A stretch of 63,903 bases of DNA, filler included, from Raillietiella orientalis (GCA_036172245.1; 3 parts of 3 records of this genome joined end to end with filler, not necessarily neighbours in it), one strand, 5' to 3'. Shown: positions 1 through 55,442, counted from the first letter of the whole stretch. The notes: generated by a model not told the origin, from the sequence alone. Translations and numbers: made by a program.

Positions 1-205
1 GCACCGAACTTGGGATCCCCATCACGGAAGGCAGGACTTCCTTGCCACCGATGGACAACGGAGTACGGAGAAGACGCTGCACAAGTGCCGCGTTTTTACA
101 CCGTATCTTGGTGTATTCCATCCTGCCCGCAGGCATTTTCGCAAGGAGCTCCTCCTCCCGGACGCCGATCTGGACTAGATCATCGTTGAGCTCACGCCCG
201 GTCCT
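1..205 (-). mobile_element. Fragment of family E non-LTR retrotransposon ORF1
   Basis: Clearly similar to ~56300-56492 (e.g. GTACGGAGAAGxCGCTGCACAAGTGC...TATTCCATCCTGCC), which lies in the CCHC ORF1 at 55743-56534. Confidence 0.75.
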
Positions 206-2638
206 CGTTCGGTAAAGGTGCGACTTCTCCCTAAGGGAGGAGATCTGAGGAGCATAAACTGTCGTTCCATGACAATAGTGAATGCAAACGTCAAGTTGCT
301 AGCTAAGGTGTGAGCAGAGAGGTTGAGACCGGTTGCCAACATCTTCATCAGCCCGGAACAGACATATGCTGTTCTTGGGCGAAGCATAGAGGCGAACCTT
401 TTCTACGCTTGCACCTGGGTAGATCTCCGACAAGAAAGAAGCTTGGAGCGCAGCCGGAATTCCGGTGCGTGCGCCGGCAAGTAATTGGATAGTCGGGTGG
501 GGGAGGCAGCCCTTGCGGGCGCAATCGACTTGCGGAAAGCATTCGATTGCGTCGACCTGAATCTCCTTCTGGAGCTTCTGGAACGCTTGGGCTTCCCGGC
601 CTCATTAGTGGCCTATCTGCGCTTCTGCTGGCGCGACGCGCTCATCAACGTTACTTTCAGCGGGCAGACCGTGCACGGCATACCGTTGCGACGCGGCATA
701 CGGCAGGGAGACAGCCTAAGTCCCTTTCTCTTCAGTACCTACTTCGAGCTGATACTGAGAGCGTACAGGGTAACTCTAGCGCCCCTGCCGCGCGACTTTC
801 CCGGTATGCCCGCTCTGTCAGCATATGCCGACGACCTACTGCTGCTGCTCCCTATGTCCACCCCGGCATCGGCGGTCGAGGAGTACTTCGACCTGCTGCA
901 TCGGGAAACAGGACTTACGGTGAACAGTGTGAAGTCGTTCGTGATGCCAGCTGGTGCGGCGTGGGCAGGGCAGCAGGACTGGGTCCGTTTGGGGATTTCT
1001 ACGGTGAGGTACTTCCAGTACCTCGGCGTACCGATGGGGGATTATCTTCCTTCGGATGCGTGGTCCAGCTGCCTTCAAAAGGTAGAGACGGCGATCGGCT
1101 CGTTCCGAGGCCGCAGGTCTTTCCTGCCTAAACGAGCCGCGGTTTGGAATATGTTCGCGGCTCCTGTTCTCCGCCCCCTGCTTTTGTTTGCCCCCTCACA
1201 GAGAGGATTAAAAAGCGGACAAAGGACCTCCTCCGTATCGCCCTTTGGGACAACCGGAGTGCCCGAGTACGCGTAAAGGACTTGTGCGCTCCTTGTCGGG
1301 ACGGTGACCTGGGCCTCCTGACGCTGGAGCGGCTGGAGCTTCAGCTCCAGTTCCAAATGTCGGCACTTGTTCAAGAGTTGTGGTGCACCTGTTGGTGGGT
1401 CCGTGCACGTCTCCTTCTCCAGCAAGCCACCGGCAAGACAGGACTGACGTCGTTTCTTGCACTCCGTCGCCGCGTCAACCGATGCGGACTCCAGCTACGG
1501 AGGGTGGCTGCGCTGTAACGGAAAAACCCAGGATTGGTCACCTGTCTCCCTTTGAACGGTAGTGCCTGGTTGCAGGAAGCTGTTCGAACGTGGGGACAGT
1601 TCGGCATGCAACGCTCTTAACAGGAACGAAGGTTCCTGTTTAGGGGTTACAGAAGTTGCACGCTTCGCTAGATCCTGGAGGATCCAAAGAAGAGAGCGTG
1701 GGCAGGAAGAACCCCCCTCGCTGCTGCGCTACCCTCCCTGATGGAAGATCTAAACAGCGATGTTGCGGCGAAGTGGGAGGTTTCACTTACAATCTCCGGG
1801 AAGGAGAAGAAGATAGGAGAGTGTTATACGGGTCAGTTAACAGACGCTGCGTCCATGAGTACGTCTCCCAATGGACTTCTGCGCTGGGGCGCGCTGCTCG
1901 AAGTTCCCATTGAACATCTGAAGTGTTCCCCGGTGCTCATGAACACTTCCGCCCTACTCTTAAAATGGCAGGAGTCGGCTCTCCTGTTGCAGCACTGGGG
2001 ACTCCCATGCAACGCCCGCCGACACCACTGGACCTGGGGAGCGGTGGACCCCAATTGCGTCAGGTGTGGGGAACGGCATTCCCTCCCCCACCTGCTTGTG
2101 GATTGTGTTGCCCTTCGGCCCGTTTGGTTTCGCTTTGCCGCGGCCATCGGTATCCCCTGCGGCAACTTCAGAGACGCTCTGAAAGCTCTCTTCGTTGCCT
2201 ACGCCCTTCGGCCTGCGGCCTCGTTGGCAGCTTTGTGCTGCCTACGCGGGCTCGTGACCGCCTGGAGCAAGGCTACGGGGGGAAAACGCGTCCAGGGTGC
2301 CATCCAGCCAGCCTATTAGTTCCTGAGGAGGGCGTTCTTATGGCCTAACCTGGATCCAGGAATACAGAAGGAGCTTGCCGGCATCCTTCAAAGGATGCAA
2401 CGGCCCCACCAGCAACTGTGATCCCTTCCCTTACCCTCCCAACTTTTCTTTTCTTTTTTGTACTGTTTTTTGTTTTTCTTCCTTCCCCATGCTGCCGTGG
2501 TGGACCGTACCGGTCTGTGAACCGGTGACCCGGCAGGCTCTGTGTTTCTTCGTGCGTGGCTGGAGCAATGGTCCAGCCACTGCACGTCATTGTAAATGTT
2601 TATTAAACAATACACGCCTTGGCGAAATCAAAGTGGAA
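206..2638 (+). mobile_element. Tx1-like non-LTR retrotransposon, family A, 3' half (RT + CCHC + 3'UTR), degenerate
   Basis: RT motifs IDLRKAFD, GIRQGDSLSP, YADD and YLG (485-1276); CVRCGERHSLPHLLVDC (1741-2319); stops and frameshifts; ends in a degenerate hairpin terminus abutting ATCGAACGC at 2639. Confidence 0.92.
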
Positions 2639-5600
2639 ATCGAACGCTTTATGAAGATCAATTGCGATCACTAGGGCACCCTTACCCGTTCGGCTCTCCC
2701 CACTTTGACCAGCGCTCACCCTTTAATTGGGGTAGCCGAGAGATCTCTTGCGTTCTTTATTTCCTTGTTGCGCATGGAACCATGTGCTGGCGAGGAACAG
2801 GTTAGCCTCCATACTTCGCACGGGAACAGCGTATGTCTGTTCCGGGCTAATTATGGATTCGGCTAACTGTCCGAGCCGCGCAGCCCACAGTTTCGCCACC
2901 AACTTGACGTCCGTATTCACGACAGTGATCGGTTAGCTTACGGAGGTCTCCTCCCTTAGGAAGGAGCCTCATCCTAGCTGACCGGAACGAGACGGGAACA
3001 TCGCCTTCTTTCCGCATCAGCTGTGTCGATCTGTGCACCAAAGGGGTTTACTCTGCCGCGAAGCCTTAAAAAAACTCCGCGGGCAGGCCGTCCTTCCCTA
3101 GTTCCTTCCTCCTCTTGAGCCCTTTCATCGCGGTGACGATTTTACCGGTTGTAAAAGGCTCGTCGAGGCTTTCCTTCTCTTCCTCTCCTATGACCGGGGC
3201 TCCTTCCGGGAGCAACAGTCGCGAGGCGTCCTGCTCGGAAGGCCCCCTTTCATACAGGGAGGAATAAAATTTTCTCATAATGTGTCGAATCGCTGACGGG
3301 GCCGAGTGTTCGCGGTCTTGGTCGTCCAGCAGGGTGGGCGGCCCGGACTGCCAAGCTTGGCGCTCAGCCCCGGCTCGGTAGTCGGCCAGGCGACGGACGT
3401 TGGGGGTTCTCGCGTAACGACGTGCGTATAGAATAGCATTTTCGTTGCGAGTCCCTTCCTTCAACCCGGAAGGTAGGCGTCCCAGGGGAAACTCCTCACA
3501 GAACTCGCGGTCCGAACGCTCGAAAACGTCCCAATCCTCGAGATTCCGGTGGGTGACGCCTCTCAGGAATTGGCGAAGATGATCCGCCTCACCTGGGAGC
3601 CTCGTCCAATCTCCCGGTAGACGCCACGCCCTGGATGGGGGTCCCTTATTGCGTGGCCAGACATCGATCATCAGACGGAAATGGTCGGACAGCGTCGACA
3701 GGAGCCTTCCTCGTATACCGACACGAGTAGACATGTCGTGGTCGAGGAAGACGTGGTAGATGCTGTTCTCCATTCCCGGGTGTCCCTCCATCAAGTTGCG
3801 CGCGCGCATGGCGGAGCACAACTCGATCGGCACGTTGTTTTGAGTGCAGCACGCACCTGAGAGCAAGCAGATGTTAAAGTCCCCGGCTATCAGGTGGGCC
3901 TTGCGCACTCCTGCATCCGTCAGCCAGTCGCGCTTCAGGTACTGGAAGAACTGAGTTCTTCCTGAGTACCCTTTGCTGCCGCTCGGAGCATACACGTTCG
4001 TAACGATGAGATCGATCGTGTCAGACCAGCATAGTCATCTGTCCAACACGACCGTTGTCATCGAAGCGTACGTTCCTCACGGAGGCGTCGACGGCTGGCT
4101 TCAGGAAGAACGCGACACCGCAGGTGTTACGATCGCCGCATCGCCAATACAACCGAACCCCTGCGATCCTCTCGATCTCCTCGACTTCTCTTGCAGTGAT
4201 CACGTGGATCTCCTGCAAAAGCGCCAGGTCGAATTCTAGCAGGGTGTCAGCTGTATCTAGCCTGTTGCCGTCGTTGCGCAGCCCGTTGACATTCCAACAG
4301 GCGACGCGGATCCTTCGGCGACAGGCGAGCCCAGGGGTTATTCCTGAGAACGTGGCAGTGCGGTTCCCGCCACCTTATCGGGCGGGACGGATGGAGGAGG
4401 GGGTGCATCGAGCACCAGTTCTTCCTCCTCCATCGAGGCCGATTCGGATACAGGCCTCATCGCGGTGGGCAGGCAGGTATTTCCTACCTGCGCTTCCTCC
4501 TACATGAGGTCCAATTCGCCGGCTGGGACGGTCGGTGGAAGTGGGAGGTTGTCACCTACCTGCTCCCCCTCCTCCATCGGGGTTGACAGCTGCTCGGTCG
4601 CGGGGAGTGGAATATTAGCTCCCTCGTTACCGCGCTGTCGGCTCCCCCCCCGGCTGCCGGTGCGTCCTCATCCTCGTTCTTTGTCGGGAGTCGCTTTCTA
4701 GGATTCTTGGACTTGCGTTCCGTCTTCTTTGGAGGCGCCTTCGCGGAGAAGGACGCACTACAGGCATCCGGATCAGTATCACCTTCTTCAGGTGACTTCA
4801 CCGCGGCCGGCCTTCTCAAGGCTTTTCGCGCGGGGATCTCGTGGCCGACAAGTGCAGCCTTGAGCTCTTCCGCCGCCTGCTCGAGGGCGGCGTCCTCGAT
4901 TACGGACAGCGCGTCGTAAGGCTCCACCTCTGTTGTCAGAGAGGGTTCTCCTTCGGTGATCGCGGCTTCCACGCAAACGAGGCGGGGGATGTCTCCCCCG
5001 GTGGTGACCTCTAAGGCCTCCACTCCCTTCAAAGTGACCGAGCTTCCGCGGAGTAGTGCCCGGCGCTCTCTCCTATTCAGAGGTTTCTCCGCTGGCTCCG
5101 CTTTCGTGGCTACGGTTTTCTTTGGTTTCTTTTGCTTCACCGTCCGCCAGCCTTCCTCATCAGCGCCGTCGGGAGTTTTCTCGACCGGCGTTTGCTGTGA
5201 GGTTTCGAGGTCTGGCTTCTGGCTACGCCTTGCTGTAGCCTCCTTTGGATCCGAAGTTTTATCCGCGCGTGTCCCCTGAGCTTTCTTCAAAGCGGGGCGA
5301 CCCAAAGTTACGCGCTTTGGGCACACTTTCCGGAGGTGGCCCCTTTCTCCGCACGAGAAACACTAGATGTGGGGGCACCGTTTTTTCAGATGCCCTGTCG
5401 CATCGCAGTGTCCACAGAACTTGGGTTTCCCCACGTACCAGATATCGACCTTTTCGTTCGCGACGTCTAGCTTGTGGGGTGACGAACCGTTCTCATGCAC
5501 GGTTACACGCGCTGCGGCCATGACACTAAACAGCGTTCCATAGGACTGTAAGACGTTGGGCTTGCTCCAAAGCGCGTGAACCGTGCCGAACTTCCTGAGT

Positions 5601-6234
5601 TCCTCCTACACGCCCTTCGTCGACATGCGGAGGGTAACTCCCGTGAGGTGTGTCACTACCGAGCGGTCCTCAGTTACAGGGAAGAGCTTTCTGCCTTCCA
5701 GCGTAATGGGGGTGTTTAGCAGGCGTCGAGCCAGGCTTGCATCCTTACAAGTCAACTCCACCCGCTGACCACCGCTTAACACTGAAAGACCTTCCAACTC
5801 TTCTTTTTTAACATTAAGCCGCTGCAACGCCCTCTCAAAGTTGCGAGCGGTATTTCCAACAAAGATATTGCACCTTATAGATGAGGTACGCCTTGTACCC
5901 TTGTTCTTTATAGGCTCTTTGTTCGGCCAAGGCATCAGCGGATAGTGCTGCAGCCACTGCGCTTTAAGTCCTCATCGTTGCCGAGGATGGCTCCGAGGAC
6001 ACGCTTGCACGCTTTTTCAAGGAAAACGATGACCTCGCCTCTGTGTAGGCAATCGCCCGCTCCACCATGGGTTGGGGAAAGGCACTAGACTCTCCTACTC
6101 CAATCTCCATCGCGATGTCCGCTGGCATTTCTGCCATGGGACACCGACGATGGGCCACACACTCTCTCAAACGGAAAGAAATGAAGGAGACTTCCCAAGC
6201 TGAAGCGGTAAAAGTGCAGGATAAACACGTCCGA
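2639..6234 (-). mobile_element. Tx1-like element, family C, 5' part (ORF1, APE endonuclease, RT start), cut at the RT AFD motif
   Basis: ORF1 fragments 4556-6140; EN motifs WNVNG, QEIH, YAPS, AGDFN and SDH; RT runs to VIAIDLHKAFD at 2671-2639; 5' GGACGTG at 6232-6226. Confidence 0.9.
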
Positions 6235-9200
6235 ACAGTTCGACGAGAAAAGTCGTGTGGGCCAACTTGTCCTCAAGTGGTCCGAATCGATCGAACTGGT
6301 CGTAACGAACATCTACGCGCCTAGCGGCGGCCGGCATAACGCCCAGCGACTCGCATTCCTGGGTGGCCTGCGCAGCCGCTGACTCGCCGACTCCGGCTTT
6401 AACGTGGCGCACCTCCTTGCAGGAAACTTAAACGTCCACCTGCTAGCAGAGGAGAGATGCCGCTTGAGGGAGAAGCAACTGGTGAGCGAGGTTGCGCGTC
6501 CGTGCGCGTGCAAAACCTGCTTACTGGTGCGCCCGGGGTGGAGAGATCGCCGGACCATGCGTTCCTCGATGAACACCTGCTTTCACGAGTAGGTCGGAGA
6601 AGGCGCCTGCTGTCCGCGATTTCGGATCATCCGAGACGGGACTCCGAGCTCCTCCCGCCTGACAAAGGGCTTCCAATGAATGTCTGGAGGTTGCCAGCCG
6701 ACTGGATTAGCAATTCGGAGGCTGCGGAGCATTTCCTTCATCACCTCCGGGGCTTCGTCATCCGTGAACTCGAGGACTGGGACGATCTGAAAAAAACGGT
6801 CCGCGAGTTCTGCTGCCCTTTCCCCTTGCACCTGCTTCCCTGCGGCTTCAAGAAGGGTGTCACGAATAGCAGATCCTTTCTGCAGGCGCGAACCTTCTCT
6901 CGATGCCCAAACGTCCGGCGTTTGGCGGAGTACAAGGCCAGAGCCGAGCGCCAGGTTTGACACTCTAGAGCGGCTTGTCTGCTCGATCACGCTGGCCAGG
7001 AATGCTCGGCTGCAGCCGACGTACACCGCGTAGTCAAGCTTTTCTACTCCTCGTTGCACGCGGAGGAGCTCAAGGAACGCAGTCTCTCCGAGCTGCTTCT
7101 TCTGACGGGTAACCCTGCAATCGACGAGGAGGAAAGCGCCAGTTTGGATTGGCCCTTCACGGCGGAAGCAGTATCTTCCGCCATAGAGGGCCTGAAGAGG
7201 CGTGAGGCGCCTGGGGAGGATGGCCTGCCCGCGGAGTTCTTTCAGTGCTTCGCGGAGGAGCTCGTCATCCTGGCGCTAAGCCTTTCCTCGCTGATGCGTG
7301 AGACGGGAGATGTTCCCGCTTCTTTCCGCGCAGCAAAGGTGCGTCTCCTGCCGAAAGGTGGTGATTTGCGCCACCTCAGGAACTGGCGTCCGATCACCTT
7401 GGTGAATTCGGACGTCAAGTTGTTCTCCAAGCTATGGGTAGCGCGCCTGGGGAGAATCGCGGAGTCCTTGGTAAGTCCGGAGCAGAGGTATGCTGTTCCG
7501 GGGCGGGCCATGGACGCGAATCTCTTCTTCGCGCGAACATAGTTCGAGTTGCAGCAGCGCGTGGCGCAGCAGAGCCAGGCAGCCGAAATCGCCGCTGCCA
7601 AAAGTAAGCGGCGGTGTTCAAGGCACGATGGAACGACGGGGGCCTTAGCGGTCGCCGTCGATCTCTGGATAGCGTTTGACAGCGTAAACCAGCACCTCCT
7701 TCTGGAGCTTCTGGGACGCTTGGGCCTCCCGATGCACCTCATCTCTAACTTGCGCTCCTGCTGGCGCCACGCGTTATGCTGTATCTCTTTTAGCGGGCGC
7801 CACGTGTACGCCGTTCCCATGCGGCGGGGTATCAGGCAGGGAGACAGCTCAAGCCCCCTGCTCTTCAGCATCTTCTTTGAGTTACTGCTGAGGGCGTACA
7901 GGCTGACGCTGGCCAACCTGCCGAGCTCCTGTCCGGGAACTTCGGCCGTGGCCGCCTATGCTGACGGCCTTCTCCCGCTGCTGCCCATGTCCACCCCGGC
8001 GTCCAGACTCGAAGACTCCTTCGAGCTCATTCGTAGGGGAGCGGGCCTGAGCGTCAACAAGAGGAAATCAACCGTTGTACCGGTTGGCTCTACGTGGGAG
8101 CGGCAGTCCGACTGGATTTCCCTGGGGATCCCCACGGGCAGGTGCTTGAAGTACCTTGGCGTTCCCTTGGGCGCCTTCTGTGCATCAAAAGCGTGGTCGG
8201 ACTGCCTTCACAAGGCCGAGACTGCTCTGGGTCCGTTCCAACGCGGCAAGTTCCGTCTGTCGGAACGGGCCTTCGTGTGGAACATTTTCGTTGCCCCTTT
8301 CCTCCGTCCCCTCTTTTTTGTTTGTCCCCCTCCCTACTCGGCTAAGCGTCGGGCGCAACGACTGTTGCCAAACGCCTTGTGTTGACCGGCGAGGTCCAGG
8401 TTACGCCTCAAGGACTTGGGGGCTCCTCGGCGGGATGCAGGATTGGGCATCCTGACGCTGAAGCGGATCGGACTGCTAGTGGAGTTCCGCATGCTGGCAC
8501 ATTGCGCCCAGCTCTGGACTACTCCCTAATGTGCTCCAGCGCGGCTGCTGCTGCGGCGCTGCACGGGTGGCGACGGACTGCGTTCGTTGCACCTGCGCAG
8601 GGAGTGCGCTCAGAGAGGATTCGGCTTCCCAGTGAAGATGCTCTCCTCGCTTCTGGGAAAGCATGCTTGGATCTCCTGCCGGCCGACGAACCTCATCTCC
8701 TGCAGACTGGAAGCCTTATCGTCCTGGGCAGCGCAACAGGATGTGTCCCGTTTGGAGCTCCGTTGCGTGAACCTTTCCCCATACTGTCCAGTGGGTGAGG
8801 TGCTTGAAGACCAGGACCAGTGGACACGCCTAGCCGCCACGCCCCTCGCTGAAGCACTGTCTGCATTGATGGTGCGAGACGACAGTGACCTGCCGGCGAG
8901 GTGGGAGGTCGCTTCAGAAATCGCAGGCGAAACCCGACTTCTGGGCGGCAGGAGGACTTGCGAGCTGGCAGACGCTGCCACGCCTCGCCTTCGTGTTAAG
9001 GGACTTTTCCTGTGGAGTGAGCTCCTCGGGGTGCCCATCGAAGAACTTGTTATCCCTTCTGCGTGTTTGGACGCGACTGTCTTCCCCCTTCGGTGGAAAC
9101 AGGACGCTTTTCTGCTGGTGCATTGGGGTTTGTACTTCAACCAGCGGGTGCACCTGATTTCCGGGGGAGTTGCTTCCCCGAACTGTGCCGAATGCGGAGC

Positions 9201-9738
9201 GGTGGAATCGCTTCCGCATTTGCTGTTTGAGTGGGGTGCCCTCCAGGCGCTGTGGCGGCGGCTGTCATCAGCGCTCCTGCACCTTGGACACTCCGCACTG
9301 GATTGGATGCGTCGCTTCTAAACGCGTGGCGGTCTTTCTCTTGGAGCGGTCGTCGCAATCATCTTCTGCGTCCGCGCCATTGTCAGGGCCCGCCACTTAT
9401 TGCAGATGCGAGCGGTCCCAACATTGGTCCCCGACAGCGCAACCTGCTACCTGCAAATGGCTGCCGGGTGGCCACATCTGCGAGCATAAGTGAGGACGGA
9501 GATCGGCGGCATTCACCGCCGGTTCTGAGAATAGGAACGGTTAAACTGCATACCACTGTCCTCGCCCTTCCACCCTATTTATTTATTTATTGTACCCCCT
9601 TCTCCCGTTCCGAACTCTCAGTGTGCCCGGCCTACGTTCCGGAAAATCTACACCCCATCTTCTGTTCCCCTTCATGGGAACCCAATTTCAAGAAGATTTG
9701 ATTGTATTATTAAACGCCTCGGCGCAACCTGGTAATAA
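6235..9738 (+). mobile_element. Tx1-like element, family D, from mid-EN to 3' end, degenerate
   Basis: NIYAPSG, SDH, APGEDGLP, WRPITLVN, GIRQGDSSSP, YADG, YLG and CAECGAVESLPH motifs; 3' hairpin terminus 9709-9738. Confidence 0.9.
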
Positions 9739-10892
9739 ACAACGACGCTGTATTCTATGATTATCGCGCTTTCCTGGTCTTACTTCTTCTATTGGCAGGC
9801 GATTTTTTTCTCTAGCCTTCTGTCCTTCGATTTTTTGCCTGTTGCCACCTTCCATTCAGGCTCCTGACCGTTTCCCTCGACCTTTCCGGCGGTGTTTTCC
9901 GGGGTCTCGGGTGCGGATTGGGCCTTGGGCGCGAGTGGCACAGCCTTCGCGGCAGCTTTCGCTGCCAGCCCTTTTTGTATCAGGAGGGCGCGGTTTATGG
10001 ATTCCCCGCGGAAACCACGCGCACAGGGGCTTGTGGGCACACTTTCCTCCTGTTGCCCATTGTACCGCATACATGTCACTGTACGTTGGGGCACCTCTGT
10101 TTTAGGTATCGTGACCTATGGCAGAGGTCACAGTATTTCGGCTTTGCACACACCAGAGTTCGATAGTTTTGCCGCCGACTACCAGTTTGTGAGGAAGAGA
10201 ACTCCCTTCTGGGACGGTCATGCGTGAGGCTGCGAGACCTTATTGCATTCCGGTGTAGTGCTCGGAAGGACTAGGCTTGGTCGACATTGCATACGCGTCT
10301 CGTGTTCTTCCAACGCGTCGCGTACTTGTTATTACCGCATTCCCGCGGTGACTGCAAACAGTTGGATCACCATGCTGCTGTCCACCGTAATGGGTACAAT
10401 TCCGCGTTTAGCAATCTCTAGGATGGTTTTCAGCACACTTTGATACAGATCTGCCTGTTTGCAGATCAGCTCTACCTACTGCTCCACGCTGTGGATGGTC
10501 ATCGCCTAGGGTTCTTCCTTTTGTTCGTTGAGAGCGCACATCGCCTTCCAAAAGTCGCGCCCATTGTCGGGACAATAGAGATATCGTACCTTGAAGAGTA
10601 CTGAGAGTTTATAACCCTCCTCTTCATTGGCAGATAATTTCGCCGCGGCTGCAGGCGGTGGCGCCGCCACGACGGCGCTCCACGCCCGCGCTGCAGCGAG
10701 GACCGATTCTATATGGGACGGAAGCTCCCAACTCCATCGCCTCTGGGGCGACGTTGCCGCCGTCCACGAGCACTCACTGGTGGTCGTGTCAGACACCGCT
10801 CTCTGATCGACCACCGAACCACAGAACATTTCGCTCTAAGGGGAGGGTTTCCGGCACTGAGGAGCACCAAGAATACTTGTCCAAACCTCATC
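9739..10892 (-). mobile_element. Family A-like element, 5' part (ORF1 with CCHC knuckles), cut inside ORF1
   Basis: Homologous to 52699-53890 (AAARAWSAVV, KAAAKAV, WKVATGKKSK); degenerate. Confidence 0.85.
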
Positions 10893-10906
10893 AGCTAGGC
10901 ATTCCA

Positions 10907-11070
10907 ATTTCACACAGGTTTCGCCGGGGCGTTTACTCAAACAATAAACTTCAAGAAAGACGTGCAGTGGCTGGACCATTGCTCCAGCCTCGCACGAGAA
11001 ACACATAGCCTACCAGGTCACCGGTTCGCATACCGGTACGGTACACCACGGCAGCAGGGGGAAGGGGGAA
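10907..11070 (-). mobile_element. 164-bp 5'-truncated family A-like insertion (3'UTR only) with 14-bp TSD
   Basis: Family A 3'UTR plus hairpin terminus, flanked by AGCTAGGCATTCCA (10893-10906) and AGCTAGGCATTCGA (11071-11084). Confidence 0.85.
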
Positions 11071-11300
11071 AGCTAGGCATTCGACTGCGTGAATCAGGAT
11101 CTCTCTCTGGAGATCCTAGAACGCCTCGTTCTCTCGGTTCCCTCCGTAGCCTATTTGCAAACTCGCTGGCGCCTGGCGCTGATCTCCATCTCTTTCAGCG
11201 GCTGCCACGTGTACGGCGTGCCGCTATAACGAGGTATCAGGCAATGCGACAGTTCAATTACGTTGCACTTCAGCATTTTATTTGAGATGGCTATGAGGTT
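11071..11300 (+). mobile_element. RT fragment of a family D-like host element, beginning at the AFD motif
   Basis: Reads AFDCVNQDL...SFSGCHVYGVP..RGIRQ; similar to 7670-7890. Confidence 0.75.
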
Positions 11301-11699
11301 TTTATTGCGACATTCTCTGTTACATTTTTGTCCTATATAAAGTTCAGTATTCATTACAAACTTGCGAATTTCAATTTTACTGGAGCTGGAACTCTTTGAG
11401 TACATAGTTGTTAATGGAAAGTATTTTAATTAGTCTTTTGTATCTGAGTCGTCTTTAGAGGGCTGTTAGTACTCTTACTATTGGAAATGTAGTGGAGTCT
11501 TTGAAAAGATTGTCATCTGATGGCGGATCCATGCTGGGATCTGAGAGGATTTGTGTTTCCTCTCGAGATACAGAAAATGGCTCTGTGTGTGCTTGGTCCA
11601 GGTTCTTATGGTGAAGACAACCATCAAGGTTTTCCGTCGAATAATCAGGGGGGTTGGGTCCAGAGATGTGATTGAGGTATATGTCCCTGCAGAACTTTA

Positions 11700-13378: not shown

Positions 13379-13921
13379 ACCGCCGGAAAGGTCGAGGGAA
13401 ATGGTCAGGAGCCTGAATGGAAGGTGGCAACAGGCAAAAAATCGAAGGACAGAAGGCTAGAGAAAGAAATCGCCTGCCAAAAGAAGAAGTAAGAGCAGGA
13501 AAGCGCGATAATCATAGAATACAGCGTCGTCGTTTAGTACCAGGTTGCGCCGAGACGTTTAATAAGAAAATCAAATCATCTGCGAACCGGGTTTCCATGA
13601 AAGGAGAACAGAAGATGGGGAGTAGATTTCCCGGAACGCAGGCCGGGCACACTGATAGTTCGGAACGGGAGAAGGGGGGACAACAAATAAATAAATTGGA
13701 TGGGAGTGTATGGATAGGGATCTGCAGTCCCGCCGTTCCTATTCTCAGAACCGTCGGTGAATGCCGGCAATCTCCGTCCTCCCTACTGCTTTAAGCTGTG
13801 GGCACCGGAAAGCCAGTTGCAGTTCGCAGGCTGCAGTGTCGGGGAACGATGTTGGGACCGCTTGCATCTGCAATACGTGGCGAGCCCTGAGAATGAGGTG
13901 GACGCAGCAGATGATTGCGAC
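13379..13921 (-). mobile_element. Diverged inverted copy of the family D 3' end / family A ORF1 junction
   Basis: Reverse complement aligns by eye with ~9352-9893, including the hairpin terminus and the same junction at ~13533. Confidence 0.85.
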
Positions 13922-26090: not shown

Positions 26091-26123
26091 ATATCACGTG
26101 ACCTTTTCTGCTGCTATGCTATT

Positions 26124-31770: not shown

Positions 31771-31779
31771 TGATGCATG

Positions 31780-43199: not shown

Positions 43200-43921
43200 C
43201 ACCCAGCGACGGAAAGAATTTCGCGCAGGCGGCGGAGGAAGTGTCGGCCAGCTTCAAGCAGCCCCTCAAGGCTGTCAAGAAGGCGGTGAGGCGGCCGGCG
43301 GAAGCCAAAGGCCCGGAAACACCCGAGTCCGAAGCGGAAGCCGGAAGCGCTCCCTCCATTGCCCTCCCGAAAAGGAAGGCGGGGCGGAAGTCCCAGAACT
43401 CTGGGCGCGTCGTTCCCCCTCAGGTGGAGGAGGAAATGCCCTCAGAGAACGAGGAGGCAATGTCCGCGAGGTCACGCGACTCCTCGGTTGAAAAAAGGGC
43501 CTCGCCAGAGGATACTGGTGTACAACGTCCAGGAACCGACGAGACACCTTTAGCCGAAGCGATGCCCGCCGACCAGGACAACGACCATCCGCCTCCCGAA
43601 CAGGAGACGGCAACAAAATCGCCACCACCATCAACAGAGTGATGCGTGGAATCGCCACTTGCCGGCACTTACGCATAGCCTGTTGGAATGTCAACGGGCT
43701 GCGTGACCAAGGCAAGAGGCGCGGCGTGGCCGACACCCTGCGACCTTTCGACCTGGCTCTTCTCCAGGAGACGCACGCGCTCAGAGGAGAGGACGTCCAG
43801 GAGATCGAGAGGATCACAGGGGGGAGGCTACTTTACCGATTAGTCGGGAATCACTCCCGTGGAGTGGCCTTCCTGCTGAAGCCAGCCGTCGAAAATGCGC
43901 TGCGCAACGTACAGTTCGACG
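43200..43921 (+). mobile_element. Tx1-like host fragment: ORF1 tail + EN start, cut at the QFD motif
   Basis: KAVKKAVRRPA ORF1 tail; TGATG overlap 43640-43644; LRIACWNVNG..LLQETH..NVQFD. Confidence 0.88.
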
Positions 43922-44208
43922 TTTTCACCCGGTCAAGCCGGGGCGTTTATGAAAAAAAACTAACAGTCTTCGCAGTACAAGGCCCCGCTGCGGCCAATAG
44001 TTCTCTGGAGATGTCGGGTGGTCGGTGCTTAGACCTACTTGACACTCCACGGCAACGGATGGGATTGGGGGAAAAAACAAAAAGAAAAATTAAACAAAAA
44101 GTACAAACACTTGTCAATTGGAGGGCCGGGAAGGGATCACTGCCCGTTACGTGGAGCTTCCATCCTTTGCAGGATGCCGACGAGGTCCTGGTACTGATTT
44201 CCCAGTTG
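43922..44208 (-). mobile_element. 3' end of an element inserted at the EN QFD site (inferred family C)
   Basis: Hairpin terminus 43922-43950; ORF2-end sequence similar to 46516-46580; runs into the gap. Confidence 0.8.
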
Positions 44209-44308: not shown

Positions 44309-44368
44309 CAGGTACCGCAATTGTAGAGTTTTTTATAAATAAACTCCCCTGGCGTACCCGGGTGGCAA
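44309..44368 (+). mobile_element. 3' terminus of a family B-type element inserted at a GFG site
   Basis: AATAAACTCCCCTGGCGTACCCGGGTGGCAA followed by the reverse complement of host LPWGFG. Confidence 0.75.
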
Positions 44369-46298
44369 CGCCGAATCCCCAGGGCAGACGTTGCACAGGG
44401 AACTGTTCGCAGAACTCCCGGACCAAGTCCTTAAATAGGACCCAATACGCGAGAATATGGAGGCTGACGCCTCGCAGGAATTCGCGAAGATGTTCTTTCG
44501 CTCCTTACAGGCGCGTCCAGTCCCCTGGCATACGCCAATCCCTGGATGGCGGTCCCTTGTAGCGCGGGCGCAACTCGAAAACTAACCGGGAATGGTCCGA
44601 CAGCGTCGATCCAAGTGTCCCTCGTTTTCCGACCCGTGTGCACAGGTATTCGTCGAGGAAGACGTGGTGCAGGCTGCTGACCATCCCGCTCATTTCTGTC
44701 AACCAGTTGCGCGCGCGCATGGCGGCGCACAACTCGTTGATCGCGTTAATCTGTGCTCCGGGCTGATCTGCGAGCAGACGGACGTTGAAATCCCTGCTAT
44801 CAGATGCGCCTTTCGCACGTCCGCGTCCACCAGCCATTCGCGCTTCAAGGTTTCCAGTAACGCGTTGCGCTGCTGGTATCCCTGTTTACCGCTAGGAGCG
44901 TACACATTGGTGACGATGAGGTCGATCGATTCGGACGATCTGAGAATCAGTTGGCCGATCCGTCCGTCGTCCCCAAATCGCACGTCCTTGGTTTCGGCGA
45001 GTTTGTCGTCCGGATGACCCTCTTCCCAAGCAGGGGGTGGGTTTTCACGCGCATTCGTCGCGGCAGGAAAATCGATCGAAGGCGTATCGCCTCCGCTGGT
45101 GTTGGCGGGAACGTCAATGTGCTCCAGCGTAACCGTACATTCTCGGAGAGTTTTTATGCGCGACACGGATTGAGCTTTTGTTCCGGCCGCCATCTCCACT
45201 CGTTTCTTCGAGACATGCTTGTCCTTTTTCTCTTTTTTGGCTTTGACTAGCTGCCAGCCCTGTTCTCCCTCTGCGGTTTCGGGAAGATTTTTCTCCGATG
45301 CCGCGCTTGGAGCTTGGGATATTGGCAGCTTTTCTGAGCCAGTTTCCCGGTTTTCCAATTTTTCTTTCCCCGCGGGTTTCCCTTGCGCTTTTTTGGCGGC
45401 CGAGGGAATCGGGGTGCGGCGTTTAGAACACACACGACGGACGTGTCCCTTCTCTGCGCACAAGTGGCATACGATGTTTGGGCACTTTTCTCGGATGTGT
45501 CCGACCGCATCGCAGTAACCGCAATACCGTGGCTCTCCCGCATACCAGAGGTCTACCGATTCTCCCGCGACCTCAAGTTTGTGGGGAAGCTCCGCTTCGT
45601 CTTTTGGTGTTACACGTGCCGCGGCGAGGCCCTTGAAGTGGCATCCGTAGCCCTCATATATTGTAGGCTTCGGCCACAGCGCGTGTACGTCCCCGTATTT
45701 ACTTAATTCCTCTTTCACGGCAGAGCGCGTCATGCGCTTAGATATTCCCGTCAAGTGGACCACTACCGAGTTGTCCATTGGGAAGATCTTACGGCCGTTC
45801 ATGATCAGCGGGGTATTTATTAGGCGATCGGCTAGGCTGATGCTCTTGCACACCAGCTCAAACCGCTGCGCCCCGCTGAGCACGCACAGACCGTCCAGAT
45901 CTTCCTCACGGACATTAGCATTTTGTAGCGCTCTGCTGAAAGAGCGCGCCGTGTTTCCTTCAAACAAAGGGCCTACCTTGTATACAAACGATGGCTTGTA
46001 TTCAGGGGCCCGATAGGCGGCTTTCTCGGTAATGTCCTCCGCACTGGAGGCGACGACCATTTCACTCCAAGTCTTCTTTGGCTGCGAAGACGTTCCAGGA
46101 ACCCATAGTTGCCCCCATAGATGTAGGTCCTGTGGTAGGACTTGCCTTCCCCACAACCACATCCATCGCGGTGTCCTCTGGCAAGGCTGCCATCAAACAC
46201 CGACGACCCACACTTAACACCTGACTACACTAAATAAACTCCGGTTTCTTCCCACACAGGCGCTGGCGGAGCGACCAAAAAACACGTCCACCCATACC
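44369..46298 (-). mobile_element. Family B element, 5' part with an internal deletion (ORF1 fused to mid-EN)
   Basis: CGYCDAVGHIREKC and CHLCAEKGHVRRVC knuckles; EN NVYAPSG and SDH; 5' GGACGTG at 46289-46283. Confidence 0.9.
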
Positions 46299-46310
46299 GG
46301 GTTTCGGCGA

Positions 46311-47515
46311 TTCCACCCGGATACGCCGGGACGTTTATTAAAAACATTTCAACGGTCAATACAGAACGTGGTACAAGGCCCCACTGACGACCACGGAATG
46401 CCGGAACTGCCGGGACACCGGGACGCAGCCCTGTGTGGCTCTCTTCAACAGTGGAGGGGGATGGGGGAAAAAACAAGAATAAAATAAAATAGAAAAACAA
46501 ACCACAAAAAAAAGTTTGGAGGGCCGGGAAGGGATCACAGAAAACTGCTGGGAGCGCCCATCCTTTGCAGGATGCCTTCTAGTTCCATTTTCAGCTTTCC
46601 TAGATGGGGCCATCCGGTAGCTTTCTGCAGGAAGCGCGAAGCATACTCGATGACGTCCCTCACGATGCAGTCTTCATCTTCGCCATCACTCCAAGCCGCC
46701 ACGATACCACGAATGCAGCAAAGTGCTGCCAGGGCTGCGGCTGGACTGAGGGCGTCCCGCACGAAGACAAGACTGAAGATACATTCAACATTGCCACCAT
46801 CCGGTATCCGGAGGGCCGTTTTCAGACGATCCCAAAGAATCTGGACGGCAGGGCATTCAAATAAGAGGTGGGGGAGCGACTCTCGCTCCCCACACCTGGC
46901 ACACGCAGGATTTACTCTTCCCCGCGTCCAGTGGAAGCGGCGCGCGTTAAAGGGTAGACCCCAATGCAGCCACAGAAGCGCCGATTCTTGCGACTCCAGG
47001 GGGAGAATCCTGGATCCAAGTAGAACCGGGGGCCACTTCAGGTCATCCAATCGAATGCCGAGCAGCTCGCCCCATCTTCTTAATCCACGCGGCTGGAGAC
47101 TAGGGGTCGTTGCATCCGTCAACTCTCCCATGGTCCAGCCGCTCATCATCTTCTCTCTGCCTGCGATACGGCAGCGGACTTGCCATTTTGGCTTCCGGCT
47201 TCCGTGAAGCGTTCTTTGGAGGAAGGGCATCGCCGTAACAAGGGGTGTGCCTTCCGCCTACGTGCAACTCTCTGGAAATTCAAGAATTTCACGGAGAGTG
47301 CGGCGGGCGAATAAGCCGACTCGCAGGCAGTTCATGCGGTCTTCGCACCTTTAGTTCTGCTTAGTCCAGGTGCAAGCAGTCTTTTCCAGCCAAGGGGAGG
47401 AGTTGGCAGGGCCACTAACCATCCAGTCGTTCTCCTTTGCCAGGGTTGCCATGCGGCCGAGCATTAGACCGCATCTTCGAATCTTCCGGCCAGGGCACAG
47501 AAGAAACGATGCGAA
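46311..47515 (-). mobile_element. 5'-truncated family B insertion with perfect 12-bp TSD
   Basis: CARCGERESLPHLLFEC (46535-47230); hairpin terminus; GGGTTTCGGCGA at 46299-46310 and 47516-47527. Confidence 0.92.
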
Positions 47516-48353
47516 GGGTTTCGGCGAGGGTGTCAGGAACGAGCGGGCGTACCTCCTGGCGCGCGGTTATTCCCAGCGTCCCGACGTCCGTCGCCTGGCT
47601 GAATTCAAGGCTGAGGCGGAGAAGCAGGCCTGGCAGTCAGGCTCGGCCTGCCTGTTGGATTATCAGGGCCAAGAACGCGTACGCCCAGCCCAGGTAAGCC
47701 GAATCGTGCGGGAGTTTTATTCCTCCTTGTACGCGCCACTAACACCTGAGCGCCATTTCGCGCAGCGCCTGCTGCCGGATGGTGCTCCCGCGCTCAAGGA
47801 GGAGGACCGTTCCAGATTGGCGGAACCGTTCACGATGGCGCAGATCATCTCCGCCATCAACAGGCTCAATAAAAGGAAGGCACCAGGGGAGGACGGCCTG
47901 CCCGCGGAGTGTCACCATCGCTTCGCGCCAGAGCTGGCACCCCTAGTGCTCAGGTCAAGTGCGCTGATCCGCGAACACGGCGAAGTTCCCGCCTCGTTCC
48001 GGTCAGCAAAAGTAAGTGTCCTGCCGAAGTCAGGAGACTTACGCAACATTGGCAACTGGCGTCCCATCTCAGTAGTGAATGCGGACACAAAGTTGTATGC
48101 CAAGTTGTGGGCTGATCGTTTGGGGCGTGTGGCCGCTTCCGTGGTAAGTCCCGAGCAGACCTACGCTGTTCCCGGACGAATCATGGAGGCCAAAATGCTC
48201 CTCGCCAGCTCATGGTGGCACTTGCGACAACGCGTTGCTCAGGACGGTCAAGGGAGCCTCGCGCCCCCCTCTCACCAAGGAGATCGGGCAGAGGGTGGGA
48301 TGGACTCGGCGGGAGCCTTTGCTGTCGCTGTCGATTTGCACAACGCATTCGAT
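47516..48353 (+). mobile_element. Host ORF2 segment bounded exactly by the GFG and AFD target sites
   Basis: GFGEGVRNE...APGEDGLP...WRPISVVN...VAVDLHNAFD. Confidence 0.9.
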
Positions 48354-53897: not shown

Positions 53898-53913
53898 GCA
53901 CAGAGCGTTCGAT

Positions 53914-54927
53914 TTTCACCAGGATTTCGCCGGGGCGTTTATTGTAAAATAAACTCTTACAAAGACGTGCGGTGGCTAGACCATTGCTCCAGCCACGCAC
54001 GAAGAAACACAGAGCCTGCAGGGTCACCGGTTTGCGGACCGGTACGGTCCACCACGGCAGCATGGGGAAGGGGGAGAAACAAAAAACAAAACAAAAAAAG
54101 AAAAGAAAAGTAGGGAGGGTAAGGGAAGGGATCACAGTTGCTGGTGGGGCCGTTGCATCCTTTGCAGGATGCCGGCCAGCTCCTTCTGTATTCCTGGATC
54201 CAGGTGGGGCCATCGGGACGCCCTCTTCAGAAACTGGGAGGCTGGCTGGATGGCACCCTGGTCGCGTTGTCCTCCCGTAACCTTGCTTCAAGCGGTGACG
54301 ATCCCGCGTAGGAAACACAAAGCTGCTAACGAGGCTGCTGGCCGAAGGGCGTCGGCAACGAAGAGGGCTTTCGTTCCTCTTGGTAGCGTTGCATGCCGAA
54401 CTGTCATCACGTTCGAACGGTTTCCTGCAACCAGGCACTACCGTTAAACAGGCGACAGGTAAGCAATCCTGGGTTTTTCCGATAGAGCGCAGCCACCCTC
54501 CGTAGCTGGAGTCCGCATCGGTTGAAGCGGCGACGGAGTGCAAGAAGCGACGTCAGTCCCGTCTTTGCCGGTGGCTTGCTGGAGAACGAGACGTGCAGGG
54601 ACGCACCAACAGGTGCACCACAACTCTGGAACGAGTGCCGACAAGCGAAACTGGAGCTGAAGCTCCAGCTGCTCCAGCGTCAGGAGGCCCAGACCACCAT
54701 CCCGACGAGGAGCGCACAAGTCCTTTAAGCGGACTCGGGCCCTCCCGTTGCCCCAAAGGGAGATACGGAGGAGGTCCTTTGTCCGCTTTTTAATCCTCTC
54801 TGTGGGGGGGCAAACAAAAAGCAGATGGCGGAGGAAAGGAGCCGCGAACGTGTTCCAAACCGCGGCCCGTTCAGGCAGGAAAAACCTGCCGCCTCGGAAC
54901 GGGCCGATCGCCGTCTCTACTTTTGAC
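53914..54927 (-). mobile_element. Tandem family A copy, 5'-truncated, with internal deletion
   Basis: Highly similar to 48354-48800 joined at ~54371 to the equivalent of 49354-49908. Confidence 0.92.
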
Positions 54928-55442
54928 ACTTGAACACCCAGACTGCGCAGCATGTGGAGACACCGAAACGAGACTTCACGTTTTGACGTGTCCCAGATCG
55001 CTGCATGACTGGCTGATACTGAGAAGGATCAGCGGACTCACGAACACATCCGTAATGGAGATCCTCGCCGGGATGTTTCACGGGGATGGTAATGTTCCCT
55101 GTTACAATCCCAAGGTGAGGACGATCATAGCCCTATTCCTCACCGCCATACTTGTGCGGTGGTGAAAAATGAGAAAAGCAAAGTGAGCTGCACCACCGAT
55201 GGAGATCCTACAACGGTTTCTGAAGGTGGAAATCGGTATTGGGAACTGCGGGAAGTTCCACGTCTGGACGTACCGATTCATCCTGAAGAGGATCGAGGAC
55301 GACGCCCGGGACCATCCAGCTAGATTCCCCACCCGAAAAGCAGAACTCCAGTGCAACCCAAGGACTTCCAAGTGCAAAGTGTTTGTATTGAGCAAATGAG
55401 AGTGTGAATGTAAAAACTGTATTTTTATCGAAAAATAAATTT
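54928..55442 (+). mobile_element. 3' end of a family F element
   Basis: CAACGDTETRLHVLTC; homologous to 27600-27890; AATAAA at ~55434-55439; no hairpin. Confidence 0.78.

What the first reader, a model, noticed from the sequence alone, without database searches (positions are those of the whole stretch)
206..11300. Apparent rock-paper-scissors cycle A>C>D>A in one contiguous chain
Seen: A(+) ends at the AFD of C(-) at 2639. C's 5' end sits at the EN QFD of D(+) at 6235. D's 3' end sits in ORF1 of an A-like(-) element at 9739. That element's 5' end sits at the AFD site of a D-like(+) RT (10893/11071). Strand alternates at each step. Inference: non-transitive targeting could stabilise coexistence of the families.
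Basis: partly seen in the sequence, partly recalled or inferred. Interest (0 to 1): 0.8.

Follow-up and report, generated by a model that had tools for sequence, protein, structure and literature searches.

The report
Site-specific LINEs nested inside each other
The chain is a Russian-doll stack of related jumping genes (LINEs), each inserted backwards at one fixed short sequence inside the coding region of the previous one, so it shows precise targeting of other LINEs but not a rock-paper-scissors relationship.

Summary
From 1 to 11286 the window is an unbroken chain of degraded APE+RT LINE pieces on alternating strands, with junctions at 204/205, 2639/2640, 6235/6236, 9739/9740 and 10895-11084.

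The junctions are not chance. All families end in one conserved 3' hairpin without poly(A), and each inserts antisense at its own short site inside sibling LINE coding sequence:
- A type: TCGAAYGC, the RT 'KAFD' codons, hit in three mutually diverged targets.
- A second type: GTCGAACTG, the endonuclease 'QFD' codons.
- A third type: SCCRAAWCCC, the linker 'GFG' codons.
- D type: an ORF1 site.

All four elements with both ends visible carry 11-15-bp duplications. A-type inserts are 86-95% identical while their targets are only 50-70% identical, so the events are independent.

The rock-paper-scissors reading fails. Targeting is by site, not by family. The chain itself has arrows both ways between A-type and D-type. 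A three-label chain closes a cycle 25% of the time by chance.

This is a new variant of LINEs that target existing LINE copies (Zepp, Cnl1). No genome or reads were available.

The parts
1..204 (-). E: 5'-truncated LINE, ORF1 (RRM-like) fragment. Its 5' break abuts A1.
   Evidence: tblastn ORF1a residues 54-118 at 26-220. Translation resembles C ORF1. 82% identical to 56306-56493.
205..2639 (+). A1: A-family LINE from about RT residue 43 to its true 3' end (hairpin plus tail GTGGAAA).
   Evidence: 87% identical to the full-length A element over 2467 bp. RVT_1 E 5.6e-16. 3' end alignment.
2640..6235 (-). C: LINE with true 5' end (GGACGTGTTT motif), ORF1, APE endonuclease, linker and RT N-terminus, cut exactly after the K-A-F-D codons by A1.
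   Evidence: AFD codons at 2639-2647. TCGAACGC at 2640-2647 follows the A1 tail.
6236..9739 (+). D1: LINE beginning exactly at the endonuclease Q-F-D codons (CAGTTCGAC, 6236-6244) and running to its true 3' end (hairpin plus tail TGGTAATAAA).
   Evidence: GTCGAACTG occurs only twice in the window, and both copies are at LINE junctions.
9740..10894 (-). A-like: 5' UTR and ORF1 of an A-related LINE, cut at about ORF1b residue 90 by the D1 3' end. Positions 10884-10894 are 11 nt of filler or target between its 5' motif and the repeat.
   Evidence: 73% identical to the A reference 5' 1.2 kb. tblastn ORF1a/ORF1b. 5' flank.
10895..11084 (-). A4: 166-bp 5'-truncated A-type 3' end (10907-11072) flanked by the 12-bp target-site duplication TGGAATGCCTAG / TCGAATGCCTAG (10895-10906 and 11073-11084).
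   Evidence: 84% identical to the A reference 3' end. Duplication coordinates, 11 of 12 identical.
11073..11286 (+). 'D-like' RT fragment that starts at the A-F-D codons (11077-11085). It is the oldest visible target of the chain.
   Evidence: tblastn RT residues 156-203. 69% to D1 and 65% to A.
13380..13921 (.). Second copy of the D | A-like ORF1 junction: A-like fragment (+) 13380-13532 and D2 3' end (-) 13533-13921.
   Evidence: The D parts are 321/383 identical and the flanks 153/159, Fisher p 2.6e-5.
43639..44208 (.). H endonuclease (+) 43639-43920, ending at the Q-F-D codons, abutted by the 3' end of another LINE (-) 43921-44208 (tail GGGTGAAAAC).
44309..47515 (.). Three elements. X 3' end (+) 44309-44368 is inserted at the linker GFG codons of G. 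G (-) is 44369-46291. F (-) is 46311-47515, flanked by the exact 12-bp duplication TCGCCGAAACCC (46299-46310 and 47516-47527). G lies head-to-tail behind F.
47516..48352 (+). P: LINE piece from the linker GFG codons to the RT N-A-F-D codons, hit at both sites.
   Evidence: 61-64% identical to every other family.
48353..54929 (-). refA: full-length A element, 48353-53897, flanked by the 15-bp duplication TCGAAYGCKYTGTGC (48338-48352 and 53898-53912). It lies head-to-tail behind A3 (53913-54929).
   Evidence: Pfam hits for Exo_endo_phos, RVT_1 and zf-RVT. Duplication 13 of 15 identical..
56825..63903 (.). T (+), an A-related LINE split at its linker GFG codons into 56825-57564 and 63228-63903 by C2 (-). 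C2 is full length, 57565-63227, and is flanked by the 11-bp duplication CCCCAAATCCC / CCCCAACTCCC.
   Evidence: 10 of 11 identical.

Best explanation
The chain is a nest of successive target-primed reverse-transcription insertions by several related families of one L1-like LINE lineage. The lineage has ORF1 with an RRM-like part and a zinc knuckle, and ORF2 with APE endonuclease, RT and a zf-RVT-like C-terminus. It has no poly(A). Every family ends in AATAAACGCCCCGGCG-loop-CCGGGTG, a 5-bp hairpin, plus a short family-specific tail.

Each family nicks one short sequence that lies on the antisense strand of a conserved coding segment of sibling LINEs:
- A type: immediately 5' of TCGAAYGC, the RT motif-A codons K-A-F-D.
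- A second type (C, and the element at 43921): at GTCGAACTG, the endonuclease Q-F-D codons.
- A third type (C2, F, X, G): at SCCRAAWCCC, the linker G-F-G codons.
- D type: at AACRACGACGCTG in ORF1.

Insertion leaves 8-15-bp (possibly up to 19-bp) target-site duplications. Because the duplication regenerates the site, a second element can enter behind the first, which gives head-to-tail pairs. Because every new element brings fresh sites on its own antisense strand, the next insertion is again inverted, which gives the alternating strands.

Order in the chain, oldest first: D-like, A4, A-like, D1, C, A1, E.

Shown: the junctions, the duplications, the recurrence of the sites and the independence of the events. 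Inferred: that the specificity resides in the endonuclease, that the hairpin is the RT recognition signal, and that the unseen halves lie beyond the contig start.
For: 1. Shared 3' end. The motif AAACGCCYCGGCGMAAYC (up to 3 mismatches) occurs 9 times against 0.28 expected, with 0 of 100 shuffles reaching 9. The predicted 5-bp stem is present in all 11 aligned ends, with GC invariant at one pair.

2. 3' flanks.
- All 4 A-type ends are followed by TCGAAYGC or TGGAATGC, the RT KAFD codons in antisense. The targets are three different elements, plus one re-insertion.
- 3 ends of the C2/F/X type are followed by the linker GFG site, in three different targets.
- 2 D ends are followed by the same ORF1 site.

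3. Duplications. 4 of 4 elements with both ends visible are flanked by them: 15 bp (13/15), 12 bp (11/12), 11 bp (10/11) and 12 bp (12/12).

4. Independence.
- A1 and refA are 86-95% identical per 100 bp up to the junction. Their targets are 50-70% identical beyond it.
- The D1 and D2 inserts are 321/383 identical while their flanks are 153/159, p 2.6e-5.

5. Occupancy of homologous sites found by tblastn:
- KAFD: 3 of 8 hit.
- GFG: 3 of 7 hit.
- RFD/QFD: 2 of 7 hit, and those two are the only ones that read GTCGAACTG.

6. Motif counts in the whole window:
- TCGAAYGC: 4 of 9 lie next to an A end.
- GTCGAACTG: 2 of 2 at junctions.
- SCCRAAWCCC: 4 of 5 flank inserts.

7. Orientation. In every one of the junctions listed, the insert's 3' end meets the upstream part of the target and its 5' end meets the downstream part.

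8. 5' ends. C, C2, G, refA and E2 share (GT)GGACGTGTTT, so these are true termini.
Against: - Only one window is available. No genome and no reads could be used, so the numbers of events per site are 2 to 4.
- In the chain itself, every interrupted element shows only one half.
- Two junctions do not fit simply. The A3 5' end (54929) abuts the zf region of an unrelated LINE Z(+), not the expected rest of P. The D2 block (13380-13921) is not continued by A-like sequence on either side.
- One D-related element (3' end about 26125) sits in non-LINE DNA.
- C is 71-72% identical to C2 yet uses a different site. The 3' end of C is not visible, so its site rests on the 5' junction alone.
- That the endonuclease determines the specificity is not tested.
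Confidence: 0.8

Rival explanations
1. Rock-paper-scissors: family A can only disrupt C, C only D, and D only A. This non-transitive targeting would stabilise coexistence.
For: The chain does read A1 in C, C in D1, and D1 in A-like. The sites of some families differ from the site in their own copies. The C2 own linker site reads TAAAAATCCG, not SCCRAAWCCC. The C own endonuclease site reads ATCGAAGCG, not GTCGAACTG.
Against: - A hits C, P and D-like, which are mutually 59-69% identical.
- The GFG type hits an A-related element, P, and its own relative G.
- D1 in A-like and A-like/A4 in D-like are opposite arrows.
- The A own site has the same core as hit sites.
- Each arrow is seen once, and a cycle is expected in 25% of such chains (inference).
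Confidence: 0.03
2. Assembly artefact: the junctions are chimeric joins made by the assembler at short sequences shared between LINE copies.
For: - The window is made of contigs that end inside LINE nests.
- The last 119 bases of contig 1 (22122-22240) are a perfect inverted copy of 13249-13367, which shows unresolved repeat structure.
- No reads could be laid.
Against: - Misjoins do not create 11-15-bp direct duplications at both ends of four elements.
- Misjoins do not place true 3' termini (hairpin plus tail) and true 5' termini (GGACGTGTTT) at the joins.
- The sequences shared at the joins are under 20 nt, and the copies are at least 5-15% diverged.
Confidence: 0.03
3. One ancestral nest was copied by segmental duplication or ectopic recombination. 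The recurrence of junction types would then reflect copying, not repeated site-specific insertion.
For: blastn first reported 205-3140 against 50769-47844 as one 2957-bp alignment at 84% running through the A|C junction, and 9352-9893 against 13921-13379 at 87% through the D|A-like junction.
Against: - The identity profile breaks at the junction: 0.86-0.95 in the A part and 0.50-0.70 in the target part.
- For D the contrast is reversed: 0.84 against 0.96, p 2.6e-5.
- The inserts have different 5' truncation points (full length, RT residue 209, 166 bp), and each has its own duplication.
Confidence: 0.06
4. There is only a weak preference for a very short motif (TCGA or TCGAA-like) plus chance. 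The coincidence with FD codons would have no further meaning.
For: - The A-type and Q-type sites both contain TCGAA.
- 5 of 9 TCGAAYGC copies are unoccupied.
- One D-related element lies outside LINEs.
Against: - All occupied TCGAAYGC copies are at the same RT codons, while 2 other copies (47051, 52692) are free.
- The GFG and ORF1 sites contain no TCGA.
- Three families show distinct sites, each hit 2-4 times at the same nucleotide and in the same orientation.
Confidence: 0.08

Closest known systems
Zepp / Zepp-like (ZeppL) L1-clade LINEs of green algae
   Same: [quoted passage not shown] Here too the LINEs sit almost only inside other copies, form head-to-tail pairs (A3-refA, A4-A-like, F-G) and lie at contig ends.
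   Different: Here several families coexist, each with its own defined site in coding sequence. Insertion is antisense, so nests alternate in strand instead of forming mainly tandem arrays. There is no poly(A), only a conserved 3' hairpin. Relationship to Zepp by sequence was not tested because no reference sequence was available from a tool. The Zepp target-site details in Higashiyama 1997 were not read.
Cnl1 of Cryptococcus
   Same: [quoted passage not shown]
   Different: Cnl1 is one family that targets itself in tandem orientation at subtelomeres. Here there are cross-family hits at codon-level sites in inverted orientation, and the chromosomal location is unknown.
Target-specific APE-type LINEs (Tx1 and R1 clades: R1, TRAS/SART, Keno, Mutsu and others)
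   Same: These encode an APE-type endonuclease, insert at one defined sequence in a multicopy target in a fixed orientation, and occasionally insert in tandem. The known targets include 'transposons' (introduction read in PMC4640811). That Tx1L targets the Tx1D transposon is my recollection, not taken from a call.
   Different: The targets here are the conserved catalytic-motif codons of sibling LINEs themselves (RT motif A, an endonuclease FD motif, the EN-RT linker). At least three to four specificities occur side by side. Clade membership was not tested by phylogeny.
Tandem dimers from double insertion at one site
   Same: Re-use of the site regenerated by the target-site duplication explains the head-to-tail pairs. 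The topic appeared only in the search listing for PMC5932611; that paper was not read.
   Different: Here the process is part of a multi-family nest, not the seed of a satellite.

Membership tests
APE-type non-LTR retrotransposon, L1-like superfamily | ORF2 with an N-terminal apurinic/apyrimidinic-like endonuclease | tested here: met
   PF03372 E 2.4e-13 over the whole profile for 51293-52207(-). PDB hits to human L1 endonuclease 1vyb at E 3.4e-6. No R1Bm or TRAS1 endonuclease chain appeared among the 50 hits at E<=1.
APE-type non-LTR retrotransposon, L1-like superfamily | Reverse transcriptase domain | tested here: met
   PF00078 E 5.6e-16 (A1), 2.8e-12 (D1) and 1.6e-15 (C2).
APE-type non-LTR retrotransposon, L1-like superfamily | C-terminal zf-RVT type cysteine motif, and ORF1 with a CCHC knuckle | tested here: inconclusive
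   PF13966 E 1.8e-4 to 0.02 and PF00098 E 0.0019, all below the Pfam gathering scores. The distant full-length homologues carry PF00078+PF03372+PF13966.
APE-type non-LTR retrotransposon, L1-like superfamily | Poly(A) or A-rich 3' tail | tested here: not met
   All 11 aligned 3' ends finish in a hairpin plus a 4-10-nt family-specific tail and have no poly(A).
Sequence-specific LINE (as in the Tx1/R1 clades) | Same 3' flank and same orientation in independent copies | tested here: met
   A type: 4 of 4 ends. GFG type: 3 of 3 3' ends. D type: 2 of 2. Independence shown.
Sequence-specific LINE (as in the Tx1/R1 clades) | Phylogenetic placement of the RT in the Tx1 or R1 clade | not tested
   No named reference sequences were obtainable. 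The nearest database proteins are 25-31% identical and unnamed.
Sequence-specific LINE (as in the Tx1/R1 clades) | Endonuclease that nicks the target sequence specifically | not testable with these tools
   Needs an in vitro nicking assay.
Self-targeting nested LINE clusters (Zepp/ZeppL, Cnl1) | New copies insert into existing copies of LINEs | tested here: met
   Insertions into sibling LINEs, each listed with coordinates in the full report. One D-related copy, near 26125, is outside LINEs.
Self-targeting nested LINE clusters (Zepp/ZeppL, Cnl1) | Arrays in tandem orientation, at centromeres or subtelomeres | tested here: inconclusive
   Three head-to-tail pairs exist, but the dominant pattern is inverted nesting. 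The chromosomal position is unknown because no genome is held.
Non-transitive (rock-paper-scissors) targeting network | Asymmetric arrows: X hits Y but Y does not hit X | tested here: not met
   D1 lies in A-like, and A-like/A4 lie in D-like, within the chain itself.
Non-transitive (rock-paper-scissors) targeting network | Choice of target by family, not by a site shared among families | tested here: not met
   The same site is hit in elements 50-70% identical to each other. The A own site has the same core.

The most novel reading that the evidence does not exclude
A guild of LINE families has diversified its endonuclease specificities onto the codon-constrained catalytic motifs of its own relatives: RT motif A (K-A-F-D), the endonuclease (Q/R)-F-D motif, and the EN-RT linker. 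Each insertion would then both find a harmless landing place and inactivate a competitor at a site the competitor cannot easily mutate away. Divergence of a family's own copy of its site (seen for C2 and C, not for A) would act as partial self-immunity. The result would be self-growing, strand-alternating LINE islands.
Probability: 0.3. Interest if true: 0.8.

Novelty: new variant of a known kind. Interest (0 to 1): 0.6.

Why it matters
Site-specific LINEs are known for rDNA, small-RNA genes, telomeric and microsatellite repeats and a few transposons. LINEs that pile into their own copies are known from Zepp and Cnl1.

Here one 64-kb window shows at least three, probably four, distinct nucleotide-level specificities. 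All are aimed at conserved coding motifs of sibling LINEs and all are antisense. If it holds genome-wide, three things follow:
- It gives a natural series of closely related APE endonucleases with different, readable target sequences, which is useful for understanding and re-engineering LINE targeting.
- It gives a simple mechanism for how LINE islands grow without hitting host genes.
- It gives a concrete system for asking whether transposon families compete by mutual insertion.

Tried and rejected
- Whole genome: none is held for this window, so no genome-wide matrix could be built.
- Sequencing runs for 2000-11999: none was listed, so the long-read check could not be run.
- Metagenome scan with the 16-mer of the A 3' end: 120 loci returned, and 0 of 120 gave any blastn match to the window.
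- First protein search used a long frame (57793-59157+) that Pfam later showed to be non-coding. It gave no hits.
- Second protein search: 9 unnamed relatives at 25-31% identity. It gave no host or family name.
- Protein atlas: generic RT clusters only.
- Earlier findings of this scan: nothing by place, sequence or words.
- Rfam: no ribozyme or other family at LINE 5' ends. The only hit was an LSU rRNA fragment elsewhere in the window.
- Twin priming or inversion of one element as the origin of A1(+)|C(-): rejected. The two are different families (about 67% identical). Also the A 3' end, not its 5' end, meets the inverted piece.
- 3' transduction of 500 bp of C by A: rejected, because identity collapses at the junction.
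- Host identification through a bacterial-type LpxB fragment: best relative 49% identical, in a Rhodobacteraceae MAG. This was not informative.
- Four full-text literature searches found no description of LINEs aimed at coding motifs of sibling LINEs. Subscription-journal papers, such as the original Zepp and Cnl1 descriptions, were not available to read.

Full report
WHAT THE WINDOW IS

The window is eukaryotic. It consists of three contigs joined by linkers of 44 N + TTAATTAATTAA + 44 N, at 22244-22343 and 44209-44308. GC is 57-62% in two LINE-rich blocks (1-11.3 kb and 43-63.9 kb) and 37-50% between them. No whole genome is held and no sequencing run was listed. Everything below therefore rests on this window.

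CHECK OF THE OBSERVATION

Pfam finds reverse transcriptase, APE-type endonuclease, zf-RVT-like and zinc-knuckle pieces on alternating strands in 1-11.3 kb. The window also holds one full-length element, called refA here (minus strand, 48353-53897). It has ORF1, endonuclease (PF03372, E 2.4e-13), RT and a zf-RVT-like part. I used its DNA and its translated pieces as a ruler. The chain reads:

- E (-), 1-204: ORF1 fragment.
- A1 (+), 205-2639: 87% identical to refA, from RT residue about 43 to the 3' end.
- C (-), 2640-6235: 5' end, ORF1, endonuclease, linker, and RT N-terminus ending at K-A-F-D.
- D1 (+), 6236-9739: from the endonuclease Q-F-D codons to the 3' end.
- A-like (-), 9740-10883: 5' end and ORF1, 73% identical to refA.
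- A4 (-), 10907-11072: a 166-bp A-type 3' end, between 12-bp repeats at 10895-10906 and 11073-11084.
- An RT fragment (+), 11073-11286, that begins at A-F-D.

THE ENDS ARE TRUE TERMINI

All families share a 3' end, AATAAACGCCCCGGCG-loop-CCGGGTG, followed by a short tail and no poly(A). The motif occurs 9 times against 0.28 expected. Two further ends, C2 and X, were found by eye. The alignment of 11 ends predicts a 5-bp stem.

The tails are family-specific:
- A: GTGAAAA.
- C2/X/F: GGGTGACAA, GGGTGGCAA, GGGTGGAA.
- D: TGGTAATAAA, TGGTACTAAA.
- The element at 43921: GGGTGAAAAC.

The 5' ends of C, C2, G, refA and E2 share (GT)GGACGTGTTT.

THE JUNCTIONS FALL AT FIXED SITES

Read in the sense of the inserted element, the 3' flanks are as follows.

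A type:
- A1: TCGAACGCTTTATG.
- refA: TCGAATGCGTTGTG.
- A3: TCGAACGCTCTGTG.
- A4: TGGAATGCCTAG.

These are the antisense of the RT codons K-A-F-D, in C, in P (47516-48352) and in the D-like fragment.

C2/X/F type:
- C2: CCCCAAATCCCGC.
- X: CGCCGAATCCCCA.
- F: TCGCCGAAACCCGG.

These are the antisense of the linker codons G-F-G, in T, G and P.

D type:
- D1: CAACGACGCTGTATTC.
- D2: CGACGACGCTGTATTC.

Both are the same ORF1 site of two A-like copies.

The element at 43921 is followed by GTCGAACTG, the antisense of Q-F-D in the endonuclease of H. The 5' end of C meets the identical 9-mer in D1. That 9-mer occurs only at these two places in the window.

TARGET-SITE DUPLICATIONS

All four elements whose two ends are visible are flanked by direct repeats:
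- refA: 15 bp, 13 of 15 identical.
- A4: 12 bp, 11 of 12.
- C2: 11 bp, 10 of 11.
- F: 12 bp, 12 of 12.

C2 splits an A-related element T into 56825-57564 and 63228-63903. This is a complete nested insertion with both target halves in view.

The head-to-tail pairs A3-refA, A4-A-like and F-G have the second element sitting directly behind the duplicated site of the first. This is what re-use of a regenerated site predicts. It also implies that recognition lies mainly 3' of the nick (inference).

INDEPENDENCE OF THE EVENTS

blastn at first joined 205-3140 with 50769-47844 into one 84% alignment, which could have meant a duplicated composite. The identity profile shows otherwise. Identity is 0.86-0.95 per 100 bp in the A part up to 2599. 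It is 0.64 in the block containing the junction and 0.50-0.70 in the target part. Closely related A elements therefore entered the same site of two very different LINEs.

For D the contrast is reversed. The inserts are 321/383 identical and the flanks 153/159, p 2.6e-5. That also excludes simple copying of a composite.

P is 61-64% identical to every other family. The D-like fragment is 69% identical to D1 and 65% to A.

OCCUPANCY

Among homologous sites found by tblastn:
- KAFD: 3 of 8 interrupted (C, D-like, P). The intact ones are in A1, D1, refA, C2 and the divergent LINE at 29.4 kb.
- GFG: 3 of 7 interrupted (G, P, T). The intact ones are in C, D1, refA and C2.
- Endonuclease (R/Q)FD: 2 of 7 interrupted (D1, H).

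Motif counts in the whole window:
- TCGAAYGC: 4 of 9 copies lie next to an A end.
- GTCGAACTG: 2 of 2 copies are at LINE junctions.
- SCCRAAWCCC: 4 of 5 copies flank inserts.

ORIENTATION RULE AND THE NEST

In every junction listed, the insert's 3' end meets the upstream part of the target and its 5' end meets the downstream part, always inverted. Applied to the chain, this gives a Russian-doll order:
1. The D-like element was hit at KAFD by A4.
2. It was then hit at the same site by A-like.
3. A-like was hit in ORF1 by D1.
4. D1 was hit at QFD by C.
5. C was hit at KAFD by A1.
6. A1 was hit by E.

Each element shows one true terminus and one break at a defined site. The missing halves should lie in mirrored order to the left, beyond the start of the contig. 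This last step is inference.

THE ROCK-PAPER-SCISSORS READING

Targeting is real, but it is by site.
- A hits three diverged families.
- The GFG type hits an A-related element, P and its own relative G.
- The chain contains both D in A-like and A-like/A4 in D-like, so the arrows are not asymmetric.
- The A family's own KAFD site has the same core (ATCGAATGC) as a hit site.
- With three labels, one four-step chain in four closes a cycle by chance (inference).
With 2-4 events per site this cannot be evaluated.

WHAT IT RESEMBLES

The endonuclease matches human L1 endonuclease structures (E 3.4e-6). It matches no R1Bm or TRAS1 chain at E<=1. Distant database relatives (25-31% identity) have the L1-type architecture RT + APE + zf-RVT. 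The absence of poly(A) and the conserved hairpin differ from typical L1.

The closest known kinds are:
- Zepp/ZeppL, whose clusters arise from nested insertion that targets existing copies (passage in PMC8226300).
- Cnl1, which inserts within itself in tandem arrays (passage in PMC9942834).
- The target-specific APE LINEs of the Tx1 and R1 clades (introduction of PMC4640811).

Four full-text searches found no description of several LINE families aimed, in antisense, at the catalytic-motif codons of sibling LINEs. The original Zepp and Cnl1 papers were not available to me.

UNRESOLVED POINTS

- The A3 5' end (54929) abuts the zf region of an unrelated LINE Z(+) (about 54930-55470), not the rest of P.
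- The D2 block (13380-13921) ends on both sides in non-LINE sequence. It may be a 3'-transduced or rearranged piece.
- A D-related element ending near 26125 lies in non-LINE DNA.
- The site of C rests on its 5' junction only.
- The organism is unknown.

VERDICT

The non-transitive cycle is not supported. The window most likely shows a multi-family system of site-specific LINEs that nest inside each other. This is a new variant of a known kind and needs genome-wide confirmation.

Noticed in passing
25466-39270: Short, broken fragments of bacterial-type genes lie in the low-GC middle of the window. They include His/class II tRNA synthetase, cytochrome b, an NADH dehydrogenase chain, pseudouridine synthase, LpxB (E 1.7e-22), T2SSE/VirB11-like, NMT1_3, TerC and Helicase_C. 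They look like a decayed insert of endosymbiont or other bacterial DNA in a eukaryotic genome. The best LpxB relative is 49% identical, in a Rhodobacteraceae MAG.
   Followed up: partly
23639-24180 (+): An isolated fragment of eukaryotic large-subunit rRNA (Rfam RF02543, model positions 955-1444, 333 bits) lies outside any rDNA unit.
   Followed up: no
22244-22343 and 44209-44308: N runs of 44 + TTAATTAATTAA + 44 are contig-joining linkers, so the window is three contigs. All three contigs hold LINE nests; the first starts in one, the second ends in one and the third starts and ends in one.
   Followed up: yes
13249-13367 and 22122-22240: A 119-bp perfect inverted repeat, with one copy at the very end of contig 1. 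This is probably an unresolved assembly-graph overlap.
   Followed up: no
28665-30666 (-) and 54930-55470 (+): These are more distant LINE lineages, with about 25% RT identity to refA. The second has a different 3' end and a classic C-x2-C...H-x4-C zf-RVT motif. They are intermingled with the nests.
   Followed up: no
13380-13921: A 542-bp block made of an A-like ORF1 fragment plus a D 3' end is embedded in non-LINE DNA. It may be a 3'-transduction product or a rearranged piece of a nest.
   Followed up: partly
53881-53889, 63208-63216, 46283-46291, about 6219-6233, about 56811-56820: A shared 5'-terminal motif (GT)GGACGTGTTT occurs in five LINE copies of different families, preceded by 0-11 extra nucleotides after the duplication. 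No Rfam ribozyme was found at the refA 5' end.
   Followed up: partly
44906-44998 (-), element G: The endonuclease of G aligns only from about residue 111, just upstream of its R-F-G codons. The N-terminal part seems to be missing between 44998 and 45401, so a deletion breakpoint lies close to the FD site.
   Followed up: no
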